Part shown: positions 15,289 through 58,780 of the stretch, piece by piece
Position numbering within the stretch: position 1 is the stretch's first letter
How the letters are laid out: every line of letters starts with the position of its first letter
Assembly: GCA_963668465.1 (NCBI GenBank)
Contig: OY764542.1
Coordinates: 622,949-686,948 of the forward strand
Origin: Dehalococcoidia bacterium
GTDB lineage: Bacteria > Chloroflexota > Dehalococcoidia > Lucifugimonadales > Australimonadaceae
Length of the DNA: 64,000 nucleotides
Reading direction: 5' to 3'
Made by a program: the position numbers and the translations under genes
Notes under the pieces: model-generated
What the model was told of the DNA's origin: nothing
The model's input: only the letters and a program-made list of their open reading frames with translations
Database searches by the model: none

Positions 15289-15750
15289 TAGGACTGTCAT
15301 TCCGCGTCCCGGTCCCCTGTCCGCTCGTCCTGAGCTTGTCGAGGGATGCGGTGCCCGCTCGTGGTTCGGCAGGCTCACCATGAGCGGACTATCTGCCCGA
15401 TTGCCTTCATCACCACACCCCGGAGTTCGGCGCGCCATCGTGTACCAACGTTCTCCCCGAGAGATGCTTCGACTTCGCTCAGCATGACAGGGTGCGCCTC
15501 GTCGTTCCTGCGAAGACAGGAACCCCGCCCCACTCCCCACCCCGCGTGCGCTGCCCGCACACCCTGGATTCCCGCCGGTGCGGGAATGACGGGGCTGCGT
15601 TAGGGCTGTCATTCCGCGTCGCGGTCCCCTGTCCGCTCGTCCTGAGCTTGTCGAAGGATGCGGCGTCCAATCGTGGTTCGACAGGCTCACCATGAGCGGA
15701 ATATCTGTCCACCTGATTGCCATCATCACCACCACACCCCGAAGTTGGGG
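15289..15750. repeat. ~140-bp direct repeat (15289-15430 / 15601-15750) enclosing REP modules
   Basis: ctgtcattccgcgtc..ggtcccctgtccgctcgtcctgagcttgtcga..gtggttcg.caggctcaccatgagcgga..atcaccacacccc.gagtt occurs twice. Confidence 0.85.
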
Positions 15751-25914: not shown

Positions 25915-25960
25915 GCTCACTCCTCGTTCAAAGTTGTTGGGGTAACCAGACGCACCGGGG

Positions 25961-26235
25961 TCACCCCCATCCTAACCTTCCCCCATCAAGGGGGAAGGGA
26001 TCAGGCGGGCGAGGGGCAGCCGAGGGATCTTCCGGCAAACGCGCAGCACGGGCGGACGCTTCCCCGAGAGATGTTCGGCTCCGCTCAACATGACAATGCA
26101 AGGGGGACCGGCTTCGCTCGACATGACAAGGGAGGAGGCCCCGGCTTTGCTCAGCATAGGCGCCCCACGCCGTTCCGCACCCCGTGTGCACTGCCCGTGC
26201 ACTCTGAATTCCCGCCTGTGCGGGAATGACGGGGC
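25961..26235. repeat. Composite REP-like array
   Basis: tcacccccatcctaaccttcccccatcaagggggaaggg; ctccgctcaacatgaca; attcccgcctgtgcgggaatgacgggg. Confidence 0.85.
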
Positions 26236-26251
26236 TTGCCGTGCGCACGCC

Positions 26252-28360
26252 CTACCCAAGCTCGATGCTCTCGTCGATGGCTTCGAGGCGGGACTTCACG
26301 GCGCTGAGGAAGGCGGCGGCCTCTGCGCCGTCGCAGACGCGGTGGTCGAAGGTGAGGCAGAGGTTCATCATGGAGCGTACGGCGATGGCGTCGCCCTCGA
26401 CGACGACGGGGCGCTTCACGATGGCTTCCGTGGTCATGATGGCGGCCTGGGGGTGGTTGATGATGGGGACGGAGACGACGGAGCCGAGGGCGCCGGTGTT
26501 GTTGAGCGTGAACGTCCCGCCCTGCACGTCGTCGATGGCGAGCGTTCCTGCTCGCGCGCCGTCGGTGAGGCGGCGGAGGTCGGCGGCGATGGCGGCGATG
26601 GTGAGCGTGTCGGCGTCGCGGAGGACGGGGACCATCAGGCCGGCCTCGGTTGAGACTGCAACGGCGAGGTTGACGCGGTTGTTGAGGGTGATGTGGCCGT
26701 CGTCCCAGCGGGCGTTGAGGCGGGGGTGTTCGCGTAGCGCGGCGGCTACCGCGCTTGCGGCGAACGGCAGGTAGGTGAGCGGGATGCCGTGCTGGGCCTC
26801 GAACGTGGCCTTGAGGGCGTCCCGCGTTCGCACGAGGCGGGTGGCGTCCACCTCCACCATCGACCATGCGGCAGGTATCTCGCGGGATGAGCGGGCCATG
26901 TGCTCGGCGATGATGCGGCGGACGGGCGTCAGGGGTAGGACGGAGGTTTCGGCGGTGGCGGCAGCCGGTGCTTCCGGGCTGGCTTCTTCCGCGACCTGCT
27001 CGCCCTCCGTGGTTTGCGCAGGTTCCTCGGTTTCCTCGTGCGCTGCCCGCGCACCCTGGATTCCCGCCTGTGCGGGAAAGACGGGGCTTGGGGGCTCGTC
27101 GTCGGCTGGAGGCTGTGCGGCCTCGTCCGCCTCTTCTTCAGCGACATCTTCCGCGACCGGTTCTGTCTCCGCAGGGGCTTCCGTGCGTTCCTCGGCTTCC
27201 GCTTGCGCTGCCCACGCACCCTGGGTTTCCGCCTGTGCGGGAATGACGGGGCCTGGAGGCTCGTCGTCGGCAGCAGGGTGTGCCGCGGCTTCCGCCTCTT
27301 CCTCGACGACACCTTCCGCGACCTGCTCTTTCTCTGCGGGGGCTTCTGCAGGCTCTTCTGCTTCTTCCTCGGATACGGGCTGCTCCGCCGCCACCCCAGG
27401 TTCTGCTTCCGCCGCTGCAGTGCCCTCGCCCTCGTCCTCTCCAACGGGGAGAGGTGATGTCTCTTCGTCCTCGGGCGCAGCCTCGGCAGCCGCTTCGGGC
27501 TCGGCTTCTGGTGCTGGCGCCTCAGGTGCTGCTTCCGCCTCTGGGGTCTCCTCCTGTGCGCCGGTGGTGAGCCGGTTCACGGCGTCGAGGAGGTCCTTGC
27601 TGGTGATGCGGCCTCCGGTGCCGGTGCCACGGAGGGTGGAGAGGTCTATGCCGTACTGCGCCGACAGCCTGGCGACGAGGGGCGAGATGACGTGGCGGCG
27701 GTCCGGTTCCGCAACGCTCGGCGCTGGGGTCTCGTGGGCGCTCTCGATGTGCACTTGGGCGTCCTGCAGGGCGTCAGGGCGTCCCTCTCCGTGTTCCCCG
27801 GAGCCGGTCGGGCCGACGCTGCGGACGCTGTCCATGAACTCGAAGGCGGGTTGCGCGGTTTCCTCGTCCTGCGCGCTCTCCGGCGCGTCGGCATCCTGTG
27901 CGGCTGGCATCGCCCACGCGCCGCCGACGCGTCCGGGGTCTTCGTCGGCGGGTTCGTCCTCCGTTTCCTCCACGGGTTCACTCTCATCCGCCGCTTCGGG
28001 TGGCTCATCGCTCCCAGCCCCACTCCCCTCCTCGTGCGCTGCCCGCGCACGTGTGGCGTGATCGCCACCTAGGATTCCCGCCTGTGCGGGAATGACGGGA
28101 TCCCCCAGGACGGCTTCGCCCTCCTCTACCTCCATCTCGCAGATGGGCTGGCCCATCGGGACGGTCTCGCCCTCTTCGGCGAGGGCGCGGACGAAGACGC
28201 CGGTGTAGGGCGACGGGGCTTCCATGCTCACCTTGTCGGTGACGACTTCCACGAGGGGGTCGTACTTCTCGACGTGCTGTCCCGGCTCTACGAGCCATTT
28301 GCCGATGACGCCTTCCGTCACCGACTCACCCACCTGCGGCAGTTCGATGATCCTGATCAT
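26252..28360 (-). CDS. 2-oxoacid dehydrogenase E2 (dihydrolipoamide acyltransferase), with expanded linkers
   Basis: Lipoyl domain TDKVSME, E3-binding ISPLVARL..GTGTGGRITSKD, catalytic TFDHRVCDG; 702 aa with long acidic linkers. Confidence 0.9.
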   Translation of the reverse strand: MIRIIELPQVGESVTEGVIGKWLVEPGQHVEKYDPLVEVVTDKVSMEAPSPYTGVFVRALAEEGETVPMGQPICEMEVEEGEAVLGDPVIPAQAGILGGDHATRARAAHEEGSGAGSDEPPEAADESEPVEETEDEPADEDPGRVGGAWAMPAAQDADAPESAQDEETAQPAFEFMDSVRSVGPTGSGEHGEGRPDALQDAQVHIESAHETPAPSVAEPDRRHVISPLVARLSAQYGIDLSTLRGTGTGGRITSKDLLDAVNRLTTGAQEETPEAEAAPEAPAPEAEPEAAAEAAPEDEETSPLPVGEDEGEGTAAAEAEPGVAAEQPVSEEEAEEPAEAPAEKEQVAEGVVEEEAEAAAHPAADDEPPGPVIPAQAETQGAWAAQAEAEERTEAPAETEPVAEDVAEEEADEAAQPPADDEPPSPVFPAQAGIQGARAAHEETEEPAQTTEGEQVAEEASPEAPAAATAETSVLPLTPVRRIIAEHMARSSREIPAAWSMVEVDATRLVRTRDALKATFEAQHGIPLTYLPFAASAVAAALREHPRLNARWDDGHITLNNRVNLAVAVSTEAGLMVPVLRDADTLTIAAIAADLRRLTDGARAGTLAIDDVQGGTFTLNNTGALGSVVSVPIINHPQAAIMTTEAIVKRPVVVEGDAIAVRSMMNLCLTFDHRVCDGAEAAAFLSAVKSRLEAIDESIELG

Positions 28361-28412
28361 GCTCAGTATTCCCTCTGCGCTACCGGTTCAGTCTCGCCAC
28401 GCTCCCCGCCTC

Positions 28413-28570
28413 GACACCCCCATCCTAACCTTCCCCATCGAGGGGGAAGGGACAAACACCCCCGATTCACCCTCACCGCGCGCTAAAGCGCGTTACCCTC
28501 TCCCATCAAGGGGAGGAGATCAGACCTCCGCCCCACGGATGCGAGGTTCCTGCCTTAGCAGGAACGACGG
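28413..28570. repeat. Composite REP-like array
   Basis: cacccccatcctaaccttccccatcgagggggaaggg; ccctcaccgcgcgctaaagcgcg..ccctctccc; ggttcctgccttagcaggaacgacg. Confidence 0.8.
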
Positions 28571-28589
28571 GCCCACACACCGCTCACAT

Positions 28590-29573
28590 TTAGTACGCCA
28601 CCAGCTCTCTGAGTTTGGCTGCTATCTTCTCTGCCGTGGGCATGTAGGCCGCTTCCAGTGTGGGGGCGAAGGGCATCGCTGGTATCTCCGGGCCCGCGCA
28701 GCGCATCACCGGGGCGTCCAGGTACTCGAAGGCGTGCTCCGCGATGAGGGCGCTGACCTCGGAGCCGATCGACACGGCGGCGTTGTCCTCGTGCACCACG
28801 AGCGCCTTGCTCGTCTTGCGCACCGACGCCAGCACCGTCTCGGTGTCGAGAGGCCGCAGCGTACGGAGGTCGACGACTTCGACGCTTACGCCCTCGTTCT
28901 CCAGTTCGGCGGCCGCCTGCAGCGAGTAGTGGAGCGTGAGGCCGTACGTGATGATCGAGGCGTCGGTCCCCTCGCGCTTCACTTCCGCCGAGCCGATGGG
29001 GACGACGTAGTCCTCATCGGGCGTCTGGCCGCGCACCGAGCGGTACGTCCGCTTGTGCTCCAGCACGATGACGGGGTCGTCGTCGCGGATGGCGGCTTTC
29101 AGCAGGCCCTTAGCGTCGTAGGGCGTCGAGGGGGCGACGACCTTCAGGCCGGGCGTGTGAGCGAAGTAGGACTCGACGCTCTGGGAGTGGTAGAGGCCGC
29201 CGCGTACGTGTCCGCCGTACGGGGAGCGCAACACCATGGGCACGTTCAGCTTGCCGTTGGAGCCGTAGCGCATGCGGGCGGCCTCGCCGATCATCTGGTT
29301 GACGGTCGGCCAGATGAAGTCCGCGAACTGCACCTCCGCGATGGGGCGCAGGCCGAAGAGCGCCGCGCCGACCGCGATGCCGGCTATCGAGGCCTCGGCG
29401 AGCGGCGTGTCGATGACGCGCTCCTCGCCGAACTCGTCGAGAAGGTCCTTGGTGGCGAGGAAGACGCCGCCGCGGCGTCCCACGTCCTCGCCCATGACGA
29501 ACACGGACGTGTCGCGCTCCATCTCCTCGCGCATCGCTTCGCGTATGGCTTCTATGACGGTGACTACTGCCAT
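28590..29573 (-). CDS. 2-oxoacid (probably branched-chain) dehydrogenase E1 beta subunit
   Basis: GEDVGRRGGVF, DTPLAE, EVQFADF, GGLYHSQS, EVVDLRTLRPLD. Confidence 0.92.
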   Translation of the reverse strand: MAVVTVIEAIREAMREEMERDTSVFVMGEDVGRRGGVFLATKDLLDEFGEERVIDTPLAEASIAGIAVGAALFGLRPIAEVQFADFIWPTVNQMIGEAARMRYGSNGKLNVPMVLRSPYGGHVRGGLYHSQSVESYFAHTPGLKVVAPSTPYDAKGLLKAAIRDDDPVIVLEHKRTYRSVRGQTPDEDYVVPIGSAEVKREGTDASIITYGLTLHYSLQAAAELENEGVSVEVVDLRTLRPLDTETVLASVRKTSKALVVHEDNAAVSIGSEVSALIAEHAFEYLDAPVMRCAGPEIPAMPFAPTLEAAYMPTAEKIAAKLRELVAY

Positions 29574-38625: not shown

Positions 38626-38645
38626 AGGCCAGGCACGCTGGATTC

Positions 38646-39673
38646 CCTAAGTTCACAAACGAAGTGCAACACCAGATTAAGGTGTTGCCATGGGAGAGTG
38701 CTATAGCCAGCTCAGCATTGAGGAACGATGTGAGATTGCCCGTCTACATACCAAGGGAGCCTCGATCAGGGAGATCGCAGCAGGTCTGGATCGCCCGGCA
38801 TCGACAGTTGCTCGGGAGTTGAAGCGCAACGGTTCACGAGCCGGCTACCGGGCGGTATATGCGCAGGAGCAGGCGCGTGCGCGTCGTTGGTCCGGAGTTC
38901 GGCTGGAGCGGGATGAGGAGTTGCGCAACGATGTGTTGGAGCGGCTGAAGCTGGGCTGGTCGCCGGAGGCGGTGGCAGGACGGCTGAGGAGAGAACGTGG
39001 CAAGAGCGTCATCTCCCACGAGAGCATCTACCGCTTCATCTATGCCCAGAGCGCACGGCACAAGGACTATGGATGGCGCCACTATCTGCGACAGAAGAGG
39101 TGGAAGCGCGGGAGGAGACGACGCAGGCATAGCCCAGCCTCGTTCATCGCTCACCGTCGCCCCATAGCAGAACGTCCCGCCTCTGTTGCCGACCGGCAGA
39201 CGTTCGGGAACTGGGAAGCGGACGTGATGCAGTTCGGCCGCGCAGGGCAAACGGTGTTGGCGTTGCACGAGCGTCATTCACGAGTGTTGATAGGAGTGCG
39301 GCAGGCTTCGAAGGCCGCCGCACCGATCGCCACGGCCATGGCGGGCATCCTTGGCCCTCTACCACCGGAGTTCCGCCAGACGGTCACCTTTGACAACGGC
39401 ACGGAGTTCGCTCACCACTATGAACTTCACGCCTGGGATATCGAGACGTTCTTCTGCGACACGTACTCGCCGTGGCAGAAGGGAGGCGTGGAGAATGCGA
39501 TTGGACGGATGCGTTGGGTGTTGCCCCGGAAGACGGACCTGGCTGCAGTGTCGGACGAGGAGTTTACGGCGTTGATGCAGGCATACAACAATACGCCGCG
39601 CAAGTGCCTCGACTACCTCACCCCAGCCGAGGTCCTGCTAGACCACGTGTTGCACTTCAAATGTGAATCCACC
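38646..39673 (+). mobile_element. IS30-family insertion sequence, copy 1 (~1028 bp)
   Basis: Imperfect terminal IRs ttcacaaacgaagtgcaacac / gtgttgcacttcaaatgtgaa; TTC (up to TTCCC) duplicated target; matches copies 2 and 3. Confidence 0.92.
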
Positions 39674-39694
39674 TTCCCGCCTGCGCGGGAATGA
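38690..39694 (+). CDS. IS30-family DDE transposase
   Basis: HTH QLSIEER..STVARELKRN, WSPE, WEAD, TFDNGTEF, PWQKGGVEN, NNTPRKCL. Confidence 0.93.
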   Translation: MGECYSQLSIEERCEIARLHTKGASIREIAAGLDRPASTVARELKRNGSRAGYRAVYAQEQARARRWSGVRLERDEELRNDVLERLKLGWSPEAVAGRLRRERGKSVISHESIYRFIYAQSARHKDYGWRHYLRQKRWKRGRRRRRHSPASFIAHRRPIAERPASVADRQTFGNWEADVMQFGRAGQTVLALHERHSRVLIGVRQASKAAAPIATAMAGILGPLPPEFRQTVTFDNGTEFAHHYELHAWDIETFFCDTYSPWQKGGVENAIGRMRWVLPRKTDLAAVSDEEFTALMQAYNNTPRKCLDYLTPAEVLLDHVLHFKCESTFPPARE

Positions 39695-39785
39695 CGGGTG
39701 GGATGCGGGAACGACGGGAGAAAGGGCGTCCCGTCTTTGCTATGCTACGCGCCGCCATATACCACTACGGCAGGAGAGAGAGCAT

Positions 39786-44257: not shown

Positions 44258-44467
44258 GCGGATCGGCCGGCGTTCACCGACGATTGTGCGCAGGGTTTCG
44301 CTTGTAGGGCGACAGGTTCCCCGAAGGGCACCCACAAGGGATGCCCCTACACCAGGCCAGGCGATCCGAGCAGGGCATCCACGAGGGATGCCCGTACACC
44401 GGGCCAGCCGAGAACAGGCGATGCCACGCACTGCACCGCCTCGTGACCTGGCGGTCACCCTGGATTC

Positions 44468-45495
44468 CCTAAGTTCACAAACGAAGTGCAACACCAGATT
44501 AAGGTGTTGCCATGGGAGAGTGCTATAGCCAGCTCAGCATTGAGGAACGATGTGAGATTGCCCGTCTACATACCAAGGGAGCCTCGATCAGGGAGATCGC
44601 AGCAGGTCTGGATCGCCCGGCATCGACAGTTGCTCGGGAGTTGAAGCGCAACGGTTCACGAGCCGGCTACCGGGCGGTATATGCGCAGGAGCAGGCGCGT
44701 GCGCGTCGTTGGTCCGGAGTTCGGCTGGAGCGGGATGAGGAGTTGCGCAACGATGTGTTGGAGCGGCTGAAGCTGGGCTGGTCGCCGGAGGCGGTGGCAG
44801 GACGGCTGAGGAGAGAACGTGGCAAGAGCGTCATCTCCCACGAGAGCATCTACCGCTTCATCTATGCCCAGAGCGCACGGCACAAGGACTATGGATGGCG
44901 CCACTATCTGCGACAGAAGAGGTGGAAGCGCGGGAGGAGACGACGCAGGCATAGCCCAGCCTCGTTCATCGCTCACCGTCGCCCCATAGCAGAACGTCCC
45001 GCCTCTGTTGCCGACCGGCAGACGTTCGGGAACTGGGAAGCGGACGTGATGCAGTTCGGCCGCGCAGGGCAAACGGTGTTGGCGTTGCACGAGCGTCATT
45101 CACGAGTGTTGATAGGAGTGCGGCAGGCTTCGAAGGCCGCCGCACCGATCGCCACGGCCATGGCGGGCATCCTTGGCCCTCTACCACCGGAGTTCCGCCA
45201 GACGGTCACCTTTGACAACGGCACGGAGTTCGCTCACCACTATGAACTTCACGCCTGGGATATCGAGACGTTCTTCTGCGACACGTACTCGCCGTGGCAG
45301 AAGGGAGGCGTGGAGAATGCGATTGGACGGATGCGTTGGGTGTTGCCCCGGAAGACGGACCTGGCTGCAGTGTCGGACGAGGAGTTTACGGCGTTGATGC
45401 AGGCATACAACAATACGCCGCGCAAGTGCCTCGACTACCTCACCCCAGCCGAGGTCCTGCTAGACCACGTGTTGCACTTCAAATGTGAATCCACC
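44468..45495 (+). mobile_element. IS30-family insertion sequence, copy 2
   Basis: Same ends and interior as copy 1; flanks ctggattc / ttcccgttttcacgggaatgac. Confidence 0.92.
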
Positions 45496-45516
45496 TTCCC
45501 GTTTTCACGGGAATGA
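44512..45516 (+). CDS. IS30-family DDE transposase
   Basis: Identical to copy 1 except target-derived C-terminus FPFSRE. Confidence 0.93.
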   Translation: MGECYSQLSIEERCEIARLHTKGASIREIAAGLDRPASTVARELKRNGSRAGYRAVYAQEQARARRWSGVRLERDEELRNDVLERLKLGWSPEAVAGRLRRERGKSVISHESIYRFIYAQSARHKDYGWRHYLRQKRWKRGRRRRRHSPASFIAHRRPIAERPASVADRQTFGNWEADVMQFGRAGQTVLALHERHSRVLIGVRQASKAAAPIATAMAGILGPLPPEFRQTVTFDNGTEFAHHYELHAWDIETFFCDTYSPWQKGGVENAIGRMRWVLPRKTDLAAVSDEEFTALMQAYNNTPRKCLDYLTPAEVLLDHVLHFKCESTFPFSRE

Positions 45517-45615
45517 CGATGGGGAGGGGGCTTGCCGCGCAGGAGAGGGGAACACGGACGTAACCCGAAGGGCACCCACAAGGGATGCCCCTACATTGGG
45601 TCAGCCGAGAGCTCG

Positions 45616-57412: not shown

Positions 57413-57658
57413 GTTCACACTGAAGCGGTCTATGCCGCGAGGTATTCTCAGATACCCTACTTTACCCGCAAGATCCAGCCGCGAGAAGGATTCAGCCTTC
57501 CCTGTTTGAGGCTATTGGCAAGCCCTCTTCCTCGGGCGCAGCGCACTTCTTCCCACCCACCCGCCCGGTACGTTGTGGGGGACACCCCCACACCCCCGAG
57601 AGCCCTCACCCCTGCCCCGCCCCACCGCGAGCGGCTCTCTGCGCCGCTCCCTGGATTC

Positions 57659-58686
57659 CCTAAGTTCACAAACGAAGTGCAACACCAGATTAAGGTGTTG
57701 CCATGGGAGAGTGCTATAGCCAGCTCAGCATTGAGGAACGATGTGAGATTGCCCGTCTACATACCAAGGGAGCCTCGATCAGGGAGATCGCAGCAGGTCT
57801 GGATCGCCCGGCATCGACAGTTGCTCGGGAGTTGAAGCGCAACGGTTCACGAGCCGGCTACCGGGCGGTATATGCGCAGGAGCAGGCGCGTGCGCGTCGT
57901 TGGTCCGGAGTTCGGCTGGAGCGGGATGAGGAGTTGCGCAACGATGTGTTGGAGCGGCTGAAGCTGGGCTGGTCGCCGGAGGCGGTGGCAGGACGGCTGA
58001 GGAGAGAACGTGGCAAGAGCGTCATCTCCCACGAGAGCATCTACCGCTTCATCTATGCCCAGAGCGCACGGCACAAGGACTATGGATGGCGCCACTATCT
58101 GCGACAGAAGAGGTGGAAGCGCGGGAGGAGACGACGCAGGCATAGCCCAGCCTCGTTCATCGCTCACCGTCGCCCCATAGCAGAACGTCCCGCCTCTGTT
58201 GCCGACCGGCAGACGTTCGGGAACTGGGAAGCGGACGTGATGCAGTTCGGCCGCGCAGGGCAAACGGTGTTGGCGTTGCACGAGCGTCATTCACGAGTGT
58301 TGATAGGAGTGCGGCAGGCTTCGAAGGCCGCCGCACCGATCGCCACGGCCATGGCGGGCATCCTTGGCCCTCTACCACCGGAGTTCCGCCAGACGGTCAC
58401 CTTTGACAACGGCACGGAGTTCGCTCACCACTATGAACTTCACGCCTGGGATATCGAGACGTTCTTCTGCGACACGTACTCGCCGTGGCAGAAGGGAGGC
58501 GTGGAGAATGCGATTGGACGGATGCGTTGGGTGTTGCCCCGGAAGACGGACCTGGCTGCAGTGTCGGACGAGGAGTTTACGGCGTTGATGCAGGCATACA
58601 ACAATACGCCGCGCAAGTGCCTCGACTACCTCACCCCAGCCGAGGTCCTGCTAGACCACGTGTTGCACTTCAAATGTGAATCCACC
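57659..58686 (+). mobile_element. IS30-family insertion sequence, copy 3
   Basis: Same ends and interior; flanks ctggattc / ttcccgccttcgcgggaatgac. Confidence 0.92.
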
Positions 58687-58707
58687 TTCCCGCCTTCGCG
58701 GGAATGA
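57703..58707 (+). CDS. IS30-family DDE transposase
   Basis: Identical to copy 1 except target-derived C-terminus FPPSRE. Confidence 0.93.
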   Translation: MGECYSQLSIEERCEIARLHTKGASIREIAAGLDRPASTVARELKRNGSRAGYRAVYAQEQARARRWSGVRLERDEELRNDVLERLKLGWSPEAVAGRLRRERGKSVISHESIYRFIYAQSARHKDYGWRHYLRQKRWKRGRRRRRHSPASFIAHRRPIAERPASVADRQTFGNWEADVMQFGRAGQTVLALHERHSRVLIGVRQASKAAAPIATAMAGILGPLPPEFRQTVTFDNGTEFAHHYELHAWDIETFFCDTYSPWQKGGVENAIGRMRWVLPRKTDLAAVSDEEFTALMQAYNNTPRKCLDYLTPAEVLLDHVLHFKCESTFPPSRE

Positions 58708-58780
58708 CTAGTGAAGGCGGGAACGACGGGTGAAGGGGGAATGACGGATGAAGGGTGAATGACGGGTGAGGAGGTGACGG
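58699..58780. repeat. Degenerate ~18-19-bp tandem repeat of the REP right arm (GGAATGACGG-TGAAGG)
   Basis: gggaatgactagtgaaggc, gggaacgacgggtgaaggg, ggaatgacggatgaagg, gtgaatgacgggtgagg, ggtgacgg. Confidence 0.7.

What the first reader, a model, noticed from the sequence alone, without database searches (positions are those of the whole stretch)
26990..28105. Intergenic REP palindromes recruited in frame into the E2 dehydrogenase linkers
Seen: the E2 ORF (702 aa, much longer than typical one-lipoyl E2) contains three copies of the CGTC palindrome at ~27057-27086, ~27221-27251 and ~28072-28099. They translate as PVFPAQAGIQG, PVIPAQAETQG and PVIPAQAGILG. The flanking 'cgtgcgctgcccgc.caccctgg' (ARAAH) also matches intergenic copies at ~15545-15595 and ~26185-26235. 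A second family (ccctcgccctcgtcctctccaacggggagagg, 27423-27454; SPLPVGEDEGEG) resembles the intergenic CCCTCACCC..GGGAGAGGG module. All lie in flexible linkers and keep the frame. Two copies belong to a ~55-aa tandem duplication. Known parallel: Rickettsia palindromic elements create new peptide segments. Inference: selfish repeats are elongating the swinging arm of a core enzyme and placing IS30 target sites inside it.
Basis: partly seen in the sequence, partly recalled or inferred. Interest (0 to 1): 0.75.

Follow-up and report, generated by a model that had tools for sequence, protein, structure and literature searches.

The report
Hairpin repeats translated inside E2 linkers
Short hairpin-forming DNA repeats that litter this sponge bacterium's genome also sit, in frame, inside the flexible arms of a core metabolic enzyme; this is a dense example of a phenomenon already described in other bacteria.

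Summary
The 702-aa E2 acyltransferase (window 26252-28360, minus strand) carries three in-frame copies of a dispersed compound repeat in its two inter-domain linkers. It also carries one diverged copy of a second repeat family. Two of the three copies lie in a 165-nt tandem duplication.

The repeat fits the published CGTC-1 REP family, which includes Rickettsia RPE-6 and the Neisseria dRS3/NTS element.

In 16 of 21 same-genus orthologues the linkers hold 43 such modules. All 43 share one orientation and one reading frame, and none has the Lys-coding loop that dominates elsewhere in this genome. That points to filtering at the protein level.

Repeats supply about a fifth of the linker. Linker length does not track repeat number (rho 0.18, p 0.43). 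Four orthologues with essentially no hairpins are 694-923 aa long. Tandem duplication of acidic segments is the main cause of lengthening.

An IS30-family element does sit inside these repeats at 16 of 16 copies examined, but never in an E2 gene.

In-frame REPs, including ones in E2 genes of Opitutus terrae, are already in print (PMC3733652). This scan noted the same thing in three other genomes and in ileS of this genome. Verdict: a new, unusually dense member of a known kind.

The parts
26252..28360 (-). E2 dihydrolipoyl acyltransferase gene, 702 aa. It is the only E2 homologue found in this genome with this query.
   Evidence: ORF. Pfam Biotin_lipoyl, E3_binding and 2-oxoacid_dh. One match in G000. 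The lipoyl-Lys (T41 D42 K43) and the catalytic D672 H673 R674 .. D677 G678 are invariant in 25 sequences.
28133..28348 (-). Lipoyl domain (aa 5-76)
   Evidence: Pfam PF00364, E = 1.7e-18
28034..28105 (-). Repeat copy in linker 1 (aa 86-109, DPVIPAQAGILGGDHATRARAAHEE). It is the three-hairpin variant: a CGTC-1 hairpin, a GGTGGCGATCACGCCAC hairpin and a GTGCGC hairpin.
   Evidence: 91% over 67 nt to genome 958080-958146. Sequence. RNA fold -36.7 kcal/mol, z = -3.96.
27587..27688 (-). Peripheral-subunit (E3) binding domain (aa 225-258)
   Evidence: Pfam PF02817, E = 2.5e-10; pLDDT 85-89
27418..27456 (-). Diverged copy of the CCCTCACCCTAaCCCTCTCC..GGGAGAGG family in linker 2 (SPLPVGEDEGEG). The TAG that the canonical copy would present in this frame reads GAG here.
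   Evidence: The family listing includes this copy. Profile of 52 other copies gives E = 2.1e-4 on the gene alone. The module stands at the same place in G001, G008, G010, G016 and G017.
26985..27364 (-). Tandem duplication of a 165-nt (55-aa) linker unit, about 2.3 units, each carrying a repeat copy
   Evidence: Self-blastn 78.9% over 218 nt. Related units are repeated 4-5 times in G003 and G011.
27199..27254 (-). Repeat copy in linker 2, older-looking (GPVIPAQAETQGAWAAQ); the hairpin is decayed
   Evidence: Best hit 90.7% to dispersed copies. RNA fold z = 0.15.
27034..27094 (-). Repeat copy in linker 2 (SPVFPAQAGIQGARAAHEE), two hairpins
   Evidence: 56 of 57 nt identical to genome 1343574-1343630. 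All six frames of this copy are open.
26273..26950 (-). Catalytic acyltransferase domain (aa 471-696)
   Evidence: Pfam PF00198, E = 9.4e-77
26186..26238 (+). Intergenic copy of the same compound repeat, just 3' of the E2 stop codon
   Evidence: 90.6% to the 27038-27090 copy
15545..15595 (+).
28590..29573 (-). E1 beta subunit gene upstream in the same operon. The 229-nt spacer to E2 is filled with repeats.
   Evidence: NCBIfam PDH E1 beta subfamily, 375 bits against a cut-off of 321. Spacer sequence.
38633..39696 (+). IS30-family insertion sequence embedded in a compound repeat. Further copies lie at window 44455-45518 and 57646-58708.
   Evidence: NF033563, 238 bits. 17 full-length copies. 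Flanks.

Best explanation
The E2 gene of this sponge-associated SAR202 bacterium carries, in the DNA that encodes its two disordered linkers, copies of the genome's own dispersed hairpin repeats. These are a CGTC-1/NTS-type REP with an attached GTGCGC hairpin, and a CCCTCTCC-type repeat.

The copies are read through as protein. They persist because linkers tolerate almost any sequence that stays open and is compositionally harmless. Only the frame giving Pro/Ala/Gly/Gln/Glu-rich peptides (PV[IV]PA[QE]AG[IT]...) survives, and only loop variants that do not encode Lys.

Once inside the gene, the repeats are copied along with their surroundings by tandem duplication of linker units. They are also swapped for other repeat modules.

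**Shown here:** repeat identity, in-frame position, location in linkers, the frame and loop bias, the tandem duplication, and variation between species.

**Inferred:** that the copies entered by insertion or by recombination with dispersed copies, that they are translated, and that they are near-neutral for the enzyme.

Repeats are passengers in the linker expansion of this genus and a minor contributor to it. They are not its cause.
For: **Repeat identity.**
- 56 of 57 nt identity to an intergenic copy, and three matching segments in the gene.
- 78 exact-pattern copies in G000 against 0 for the reversed pattern.
- The architecture (CGTC head, 8-bp stem ATTCCCGC, 4-nt loop, CCA tail) matches the CGTC-1 description read in passages of PMC3733652.

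**Location.** The copies lie in linkers by Pfam, and all repeat-encoded residues fall in regions with pLDDT below 50.

**The gene is functional.**
- The frame is open in all 21 genus orthologues, which are 577-934 aa long.
- Catalytic and lipoyl-Lys residues are invariant.
- In 6 orthologues the catalytic domain is 90% identical overall but only 77% at third codon positions.

**Filter at the peptide level.**
- 43 of 43 CGTC-type modules in 16 of 21 E2 genes share one orientation and one frame. All six frames of the copy are open, and other frames are used in other genes of G000 and in R. conorii.
- 0 of 43 modules have a Lys-coding loop, against 105 of 179 in the rest of G000.

**Turnover.**
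- The site just after the lipoyl domain holds different repeats in different species.
- In G003 and G011, 15 nt of one hairpin are replaced by 39 nt of another repeat, in frame.

**Generality.** In-frame copies also lie in IleRS, LigA, Lhr, CTP synthase and a PKS of G000.
Against: - No direct evidence of translation: no proteome data, and no RNA run was available.
- No clean empty site or target-site duplication was found, so insertion events are inferred and not seen.
- 29 of 43 modules keep perfect 8-bp stems.
- A 33-nt module is identical in six species whose flanking 21 nt are only 69% identical. However, 24 of those 33 nt were the selection criterion. The excess conservation is more than simple neutral decay predicts. 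It would need recent entry, gene conversion, or selection on the hairpin.
- The 43:0 orientation is not explained by the core peptide alone, because the reverse orientation also reads VPAxAGT and is used in other genes.
- The number of independent events behind the 43 modules is unknown. I count at least 7 sites or subtypes by eye. Relatives are not independent.
- Loop frequencies were counted in full for G000 only.
Confidence: 0.8

Rival explanations
1. The hairpins inside E2 are kept for a nucleic-acid function and not merely tolerated. Examples would be mRNA structures at domain boundaries that slow ribosomes or protect the transcript, or DNA sites (NTS-like) that direct recombination or cleavage by an Ssn-type nuclease and so make linker length adjustable.
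For: - 29 of 43 modules have perfect stems.
- A repeat lies within about 8-35 codons after the lipoyl domain in 13 of 21 orthologues by the strict pattern, plus degenerate copies in G010 and G011.
- The 33-nt module is identical in 6 species despite 69% identity in its flanks (selection caveat applies).
- All 43 modules share one orientation.
- The repeat equals the Neisseria NTS core, which an Ssn nuclease cuts as ssDNA (PMC11893778, passages).
- Small GIY-YIG genes flanked by these hairpins exist in relatives.
Against: - Five of 21 orthologues have no CGTC-type module and four have essentially no hairpins, yet keep the gene intact.
- One of the three copies in this gene has a decayed hairpin with fold z = 0.15, and only 1 of 4 modules folds better than shuffles.
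- G000 has no intact small GIY-YIG gene, only a 29-aa remnant.
- Intergenic repeats downstream of genes show the same orientation bias, 68 to 17. Orientation therefore needs no E2-specific function.
- The Lys-loop avoidance is a protein-level signal, not an RNA-level one.
Confidence: 0.12
2. Repeats are the main force lengthening the swinging arm.
For: - Genus E2s measure 577-934 aa, against 449-501 aa in four out-of-genus relatives.
- The CGTC-type patterns are abundant in the genus and nearly absent outside it.
- Some genes carry up to 6 CGTC-type modules, or 6 CCCTCTCC-type modules.
Against: - Spearman rho is 0.18 (p = 0.43) between linker length and module number in 21 orthologues.
- G002 (923 aa), G004 (771), G007 (792) and G021 (694) have 0-1 hairpins.
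- G002 and G004 have the most repeat-rich genomes (649 and 409 copies) but repeat-free E2 linkers.
- In G000 the repeats account for roughly a fifth of linker residues.
- Tandem acidic units make up much of the rest.
Confidence: 0.1
3. Artefact: either a mis-assembly that pulled dispersed repeats into the gene, or a decaying pseudogene.
For: Short-read contigs break at the first repeat copy in all four runs laid.
Against: - Contigs from 4 runs in 2 studies bridge the other two copies and the CCCTCTCC module with 0 differences.
- 21 orthologues from separate assemblies show the same kind of in-frame modules and no stop codons.
- Catalytic residues are invariant.
Confidence: 0.02

Closest known systems
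Intragenic CGTC-1 REPs (Di Nocera, De Gregorio and Rocco 2013, PMC3733652). That paper equates CGTC-1 with Rickettsia RPE-6 and Neisseria dRS3.
   Same: - The same element: CGTC head, stem ATTCCCGC, 4-nt loop, CCA tail.
- No RAYT transposase.
- In-frame copies in housekeeping genes. Their supplementary file 3 lists VIPAKAGI, SFPRKRES and DSRFRGND peptides in R. conorii, the same three readings seen in G000.
- The same file lists REP dimers in two E2 genes of Opitutus terrae, Oter_4191 and Oter_4192.
- The authors already suggest that insertions are neutral because they lie in flexible linkers or loops.
   Different: - New lineage: Chloroflexota/SAR202. The paper lists CGTC repeats in five other phyla.
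- The REP here is fused to a second, and sometimes a third, hairpin.
- Density in one gene is far higher: 3-6 CGTC modules plus other families per E2, across 16 species.
- One frame only, with Lys-coding loops excluded.
- The O. terrae E2 cases are GTAG-17 dimers, not CGTC-1.
Rickettsia palindromic elements (RPE-1 and others). I recall Ogata et al. 2000 from memory. Here I saw them only as summarised in the review PMC10969869 (passages).
   Same: Selfish palindromic repeats inserted in frame into unrelated genes and read as extra peptide segments.
   Different: RPE-1 is about 150 bp and encodes its own conserved peptide. The elements here are 20-70 nt REP modules confined, in this gene, to disordered linkers.
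NTS/SRM repeats and Ssn GIY-YIG ssDNA nucleases (Chenal et al. 2025, PMC11893778; passages read)
   Same: - The NTS consensus CGTCATTCCCGCGMAVGCGGGAATCYRG fits most dispersed copies here: the GAAG, GAAA and GCAG loops make up 116 of 179.
- Relatives G003, G011, G004 and G009 have a gene for a roughly 100-aa single-domain GIY-YIG protein with CGTC-type hairpins within about 100 nt on both sides. This resembles the NTS-ssnA-NTS arrangement.
- The paper notes enrichment in symbionts.
   Different: - G000 has no intact gene of this kind.
- The E2 copies carry ACAG loops, which lie outside the NTS consensus.
- Membership of the relatives' proteins in cd10448 could not be tested. NCBIfam gave no hit, and PDB gave only weak UPF0213 hits.
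REP/REPIN-RAYT systems
   Same: Dispersed, clustered, hairpin-forming extragenic repeats.
   Different: No Y1 transposase in G000. Only weak partial hits in 3 of 22 genus genomes, the best of them in the repeat-poor G007.
Insertion sequences that target REPs. I recall IS1397/ISKpn1 in enterobacterial REPs, and IS30 hot-spot and inverted-repeat targeting, from memory; no paper was read.
   Same: An IS30-family element lies at one fixed place in the compound repeat in 16 of 16 copies examined.
   Different: It is unresolved whether the right-hand hairpin is target or cargo, since 9 of 16 copies share one hairpin variant. No such IS lies in any E2 gene.

Membership tests
CGTC-1 REP family (Di Nocera 2013) | Unpaired CGTC tag at one end of the stem-loop | tested here: met
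   CGTC (at least 3 of 4 letters) stands 5' of the stem on the coding strand in 43 of 43 E2 modules. In the three copies of this gene the sequence is CCCGTC(A/T)TTCCCGC.
CGTC-1 REP family (Di Nocera 2013) | 8-bp stem beginning AT, 4-nt loop, short CCA-type tail | tested here: met
   ATTCCCGC-ACAG-GCGGGAAT-CCAG in the G011 A-type unit at the position orthologous to the copy at 27034-27094, which itself begins TTTCCCGC. The tail is CCTA in the copy at 28034-28105. One stem is decayed in the copy at 27199-27254. The second subfamily has stem GTTCCTGC, which departs from 'AT first'.
CGTC-1 REP family (Di Nocera 2013) | Dispersed, high-copy, mostly extragenic family without a dedicated transposase | tested here: met
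   78 exact-pattern copies in G000 against 0 for the reversed control. 163 of 195 hairpins lie outside crude gene calls. No Y1_Tnp in G000.
NTS/SRM-Ssn system (Chenal 2025) | Repeat fits CGTCATTCCCGCGMAVGCGGGAATCYRG | tested here: inconclusive
   Head, stem and tail fit. The loops of the E2 copies (ACAG; GGAG in relatives) do not fit GMAV. Most dispersed copies do fit: GAAG 81, GAAA 21 and GCAG 14 of 179.
NTS/SRM-Ssn system (Chenal 2025) | A small single-domain GIY-YIG (cd10448) gene in the genome, often flanked by the repeat | tested here: not met
   G000 has UvrC, a 289-aa ORF, a partial match and a 29-aa remnant only. It is met in relatives: 17 of 22 genus genomes have a small full-length GIY-YIG ORF, and 4 of 4 loci of one type are flanked by hairpins. 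Assignment to cd10448 is not testable here.
2-oxoacid dehydrogenase E2 component | Lipoyl domain with DK lipoyl-lysine, peripheral-subunit-binding domain, and catalytic domain with DHRxxDG | tested here: met
   Three Pfam domains. T41 D42 K43 and D672 H673 R674 .. D677 G678 are invariant in 25 sequences. Which 2-oxoacid it serves is not settled: no NCBIfam equivalog reaches its cut-off, while the neighbouring E1 beta passes the PDH subfamily cut-off.
REPIN/RAYT system | Cognate REP-associated tyrosine transposase (Y1_Tnp) in the genome | tested here: not met
   0 matches in G000. 3 of 22 genus genomes give weak partial matches unrelated to repeat load.
IS30 family (the neighbouring IS, not the repeat) | IS30-type transposase | tested here: met
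   NF033563 at 238 bits against a cut-off of 80, plus the Pfam HTH_38 domain.

The most novel reading that the evidence does not exclude
The E2 linkers of this genus may be a standing exchange site between an essential gene and the dispersed NTS-like repeat family. In this reading, repeats inside the gene are continually replaced or homogenised by recombination with genomic copies. That would explain the perfect stems, identical modules across species, and in-frame module swaps.

This traffic, together with unit duplication, would make swinging-arm length and composition unusually evolvable. The repeat at the lipoyl-domain boundary, present in most species, could then be maintained for a nucleic-acid role.
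Probability: 0.15. Interest if true: 0.6.

Novelty: new member of a known kind. Interest (0 to 1): 0.38.

Why it matters
It gives a clean natural data set on what happens when selfish hairpin repeats land in an essential gene. There are 43 modules in 16 related genes, all in one frame and orientation, and none with the Lys-coding loop that is commonest in the genome. This is indirect but quantitative evidence that such repeats are translated and filtered at the protein level.

It also extends the CGTC-1/NTS repeat family, known from Rickettsia, Neisseria and sphingomonads, to sponge-associated Chloroflexota.

Together with the Opitutus entries in print and three earlier notes of this scan, it shows that E2 linkers are a recurrent landing place for REPs across phyla.

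It does not change the understanding of the enzyme.

Tried and rejected
- **RNA evidence.** No RNA holder is listed among the public runs, so expression could not be examined.
- **Strain variation.** Contigs of four runs showed no variants in the gene. Contigs drop rare variants, so this says little.
- **RAYT as mobiliser.** Rejected.
- **An Ssn-type nuclease in G000.** Not found.
- **Naming the relatives' small GIY-YIG proteins.** NCBIfam gave nothing, and PDB gave only weak UPF0213 matches at E = 0.0016 and 0.0069.
- **Fold energies as evidence of selected structure.** Only the three-hairpin copy beats shuffles (z = -3.96). The others give z = -1.16, 0.15 and -1.00.
- **Cross-species conservation of the 33-nt module.** The comparison is partly circular, because I chose the six species by an exact 24-nt match. 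I use it only as a hint.
- **First GC3-based screen for intragenic repeats.** It missed E2 itself because the acidic linker flanks failed the threshold. The later crude gene calls also missed E1 alpha, so the count of 32 intragenic out of 195 is rough and probably inflated by over-extended N-termini.
- **Ambiguous cases.** Two candidates proved ambiguous: the repeats between two CoA-transferase matches, and those upstream of a hydrolase domain.
- **Clean empty-site comparison.** Sought by eye, but not found, because linker flanks diverge too fast.
- **Literature search.** It failed on a too-short term and was re-run with other terms.
- **Literature coverage.** Searches found no paper on palindromic repeats in E2 linkers or in SAR202. 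The only E2 mention I found is in supplementary file 3 of PMC3733652.
Full report
**The object.** The window lies in a 3.24-Mb, 65.5% G+C single-contig genome. Earlier notes of this scan call it a sponge-associated SAR202 (Chloroflexota) bacterium; I did not test that name myself. The ORF 26252-28360 on the minus strand encodes 702 aa. Pfam finds a lipoyl domain (aa 5-76), an E3-binding domain (225-258) and the catalytic acyltransferase domain (471-696). It follows an E1 beta gene that passes the PDH E1-beta cut-off. It is the only E2 homologue found in the genome with this query. The two linkers are about 145 and 214 aa long.

**Check of the observation.**
- The core TTCCCGCCTGTGCGGGAA occurs at 27061, 27226 (one mismatch) and 28075. 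The window has 11 matches at up to 2 mismatches, against none in 100 shuffles. The genome has 79.
- A blastn of the gene against the rest of the genome lights up exactly three segments: 27034-27094, 27199-27254 and 28034-28105. The best hit is 56 of 57 nt identical to an intergenic copy.
- Each copy is compound. A CGTC-tagged hairpin (stem ATTCCCGC, 4-nt loop) is followed by CCAGG and a second hairpin, GTGCGC-GGGC-AGCGCAC. The linker-1 copy has a third hairpin between them, a variant that also exists between genes.
- The peptides are as stated.
- The second family is real but the E2 copy is diverged. It fits the pattern shared by 66 copies. A profile built from 52 other copies scores E = 2.1e-4 on the gene alone, yet does not reach 0.01 genome-wide. 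In the reading frame, the TAG of the canonical copy is GAG here.
- The two linker-2 copies sit at the same place in successive units of a 165-nt tandem duplication (78.9% over 218 nt).
- Contigs of four public runs from two studies reproduce the gene with no differences. They break only at the first repeat copy, as repeated words do. One run may be the source sample.

**What the repeat is.** A CGTC head, an 8-bp stem beginning AT, a 4-nt loop and a CCA tail is the description of family CGTC-1 in Di Nocera et al. 2013 (PMC3733652; abstract, passages and supplementary file 3 seen).
- That paper equates CGTC-1 with Rickettsia RPE-6 and Neisseria dRS3. It reports that CGTC REPs lack a dedicated transposase and lists REPs inside genes.
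- Its supplementary file 3 gives VIPAKAGI, SFPRKRES and DSRFRGND as the peptides of CGTC-1 in R. conorii genes. These are the three readings I find in G000 genes.
- The same file lists REP dimers of another family (GTAG-17) in two E2 genes of Opitutus terrae.
- G000 has no Y1 transposase. Only 3 of 22 genus genomes give weak partial matches.
- A 2025 paper (PMC11893778; abstract and passages seen) defines the Neisseria NTS as CGTCATTCCCGCGMAVGCGGGAATCYRG. It shows that a small GIY-YIG nuclease, SsnA, cuts it as single-stranded DNA. Its gene is often flanked by the repeat.
- Most dispersed copies in G000 fit that consensus, but the E2 copies have other loops.
- 17 of 22 genus genomes have a small full-length GIY-YIG ORF. 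In G003, G011, G004 and G009 it has CGTC-type hairpins on both sides.
- G000 has only a 29-aa remnant of another type.
- I could not assign these proteins to the Ssn family proper.

**Relatives.** I recovered the orthologue from 21 genomes of the same genus and from 4 genomes outside it; G006 gave no match.
- Genus E2s measure 577-934 aa, and the four outsiders 449-501 aa.
- In 16 of the 21, the linkers contain 43 CGTC-type modules. Most genes also carry CCCTCTCC-type modules, read as D/HPLSLEGRGRAESAGEGE, SPLxVGEGEGEG or PSPxPSPIGRGS.
- All 43 have the CGTC head on the coding strand and start at codon position 1, and 29 have perfect stems.
- The spot just after the lipoyl domain carries a CGTC-type module in 13 of 21 by the strict pattern, plus degenerate ones in G010 and G011. 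The content differs by species: one subfamily, the other, both, or a CCCTCTCC-type repeat in G019 and G009.
- In G003 and G011, 15 nt of one hairpin are replaced in frame by 39 nt of another repeat.

**Evidence for a protein-level filter.**
- All six frames of the copy at 27034-27094 are open.
- Elsewhere in G000 and in Rickettsia several frames and both orientations are used.
- In the acidic E2 linkers only the Pro/Ala/Gly frame is found.
- The loop, which encodes one residue in that frame, would give Lys in 105 of 179 dispersed copies of G000. It never does in the 43 E2 modules, which read 26 Glu, 14 Gln, 2 Pro and 1 Asp.
- With even seven independent events this is unlikely by chance. However, the number of independent events is unknown, relatives are not independent, and loop frequencies were counted in full for G000 only.
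- Orientation is less telling. Intergenic copies within 300 nt downstream of a crude gene call already point the same way 68 to 17.

- Linker length does not follow repeat content (rho 0.18, p 0.43, n = 21).
- G021, G002, G004 and G007 have 0-1 perfect hairpins in 1.2-1.9 kb of linker DNA but are 694-923 aa long.
- G002 and G004 have the highest genomic repeat loads, while G007 has almost none.
- Their linkers are made of tandem acidic units.
- In G000 the four modules sum to about 228 nt, roughly 76 of about 358 linker residues.
- The expansion of the arm is therefore a genus trait driven mainly by duplication of low-complexity segments. Repeats ride along.

**State of the gene.**
- It is open in all 21 genus orthologues.
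- The lipoyl-lysine and the DHRxxDG residues are invariant in 25 sequences.
- The catalytic domain is 90% identical overall but 77% identical at third positions among six orthologues.
- An AlphaFold2 model built on the 25-sequence alignment is poor overall (mean pLDDT 53.8). It gives the three domains higher confidence and the linkers, including every repeat-encoded residue, pLDDT below 50 with no secondary structure. This is consistent with disorder but does not prove it.

**IS30.**
- The element whose end abuts the hairpin is an IS30-family IS with 17 full-length copies.
- In all 16 I examined it is bracketed by ...CTGGATTCC(C) on the left, usually preceded by a GTGCGC-type hairpin, and by a TTCC..GGAA hairpin plus TGACG on the right (read by eye).
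- It therefore sits at one place in the compound repeat.
- Nine of the 16 share one hairpin variant, so part of the hairpin may travel with the IS.
- The E2 copies have the same architecture, but no E2 gene in the 21 genomes is interrupted.

**Wider picture in this genome.**
- In-frame copies also lie in IleRS (found before by this scan), NAD-dependent DNA ligase, an Lhr helicase, CTP synthase and a polyketide synthase linker.
- This matches the gene classes listed in PMC3733652.
- The scan also noted palindromic repeats in E2 linkers of three other genomes.

**Verdict.** This is a real feature, correctly observed, and a member of a known phenomenon. It is notable for its density, its single-frame and loop filtering, and the new lineage.

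Noticed in passing
window 27773-27844 (aa 173-196 of E2, linker 1): A motif FEFxxxVRSVGPTGSGExGxGRxD lies between the lipoyl and E3-binding domains. It is invariant or nearly so in all 25 aligned E2s, including the four outside the genus (V182 G183 P184 T185 G186 are invariant). It has no Pfam match and pLDDT of about 30-34. It may be a short linear binding motif.
   Followed up: partly
window 38633-39696, 44455-45518 and 57646-58708: An IS30-family insertion sequence of about 1.06 kb has 17 full-length copies in the genome at about 99% identity. Every one of the 16 examined is inserted at the same point of a compound CGTC-type repeat.
   Followed up: partly
L045 (G003) 1385-1841; also L049 (G011), L047 (G004) and L050 (G009): Genes for roughly 100-aa single-domain GIY-YIG proteins have CGTC-type hairpins close on both sides, like the published NTS-ssnA-NTS arrangement. 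G000 keeps only a 29-aa remnant of a different small GIY-YIG gene at genome 2405434-2405520.
   Followed up: partly
G000 genome 834107 (LigA adenylation domain), 1249765 and 1250390 (Lhr helicase), 1645731 and 1645801 (CTP synthase N-domain), 1118790 (PKS KS-AT linker): Further in-frame repeat copies lie inside Pfam-supported housekeeping genes. Some split a catalytic-domain match rather than sitting in a linker.
   Followed up: partly
window 25950-26251 and 28361-28589: Both spacers flanking the E2 gene are packed with several repeat families: CCTTCCCC..GGGGAAGG, CCCTCTCC..GGAGAGG and CGTC-type.
   Followed up: no
L023 (G004) and L010 (G009) E2 linkers: Near-perfect tandem arrays of 13-24-aa acidic units, for example PAPVAESEEAPER about 9 times and ATEPVAQEEVAAA about 8 times. 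They lengthen the linkers to 255-383 aa without any hairpin repeat.
   Followed up: no
G000 genome 813408-814823, 1283674-1285377 and 2089345-2090928: Three paralogous ORFs without Pfam matches each carry a VPAEAGTSQP or VPASAGTTG repeat peptide at the same relative place.
   Followed up: no
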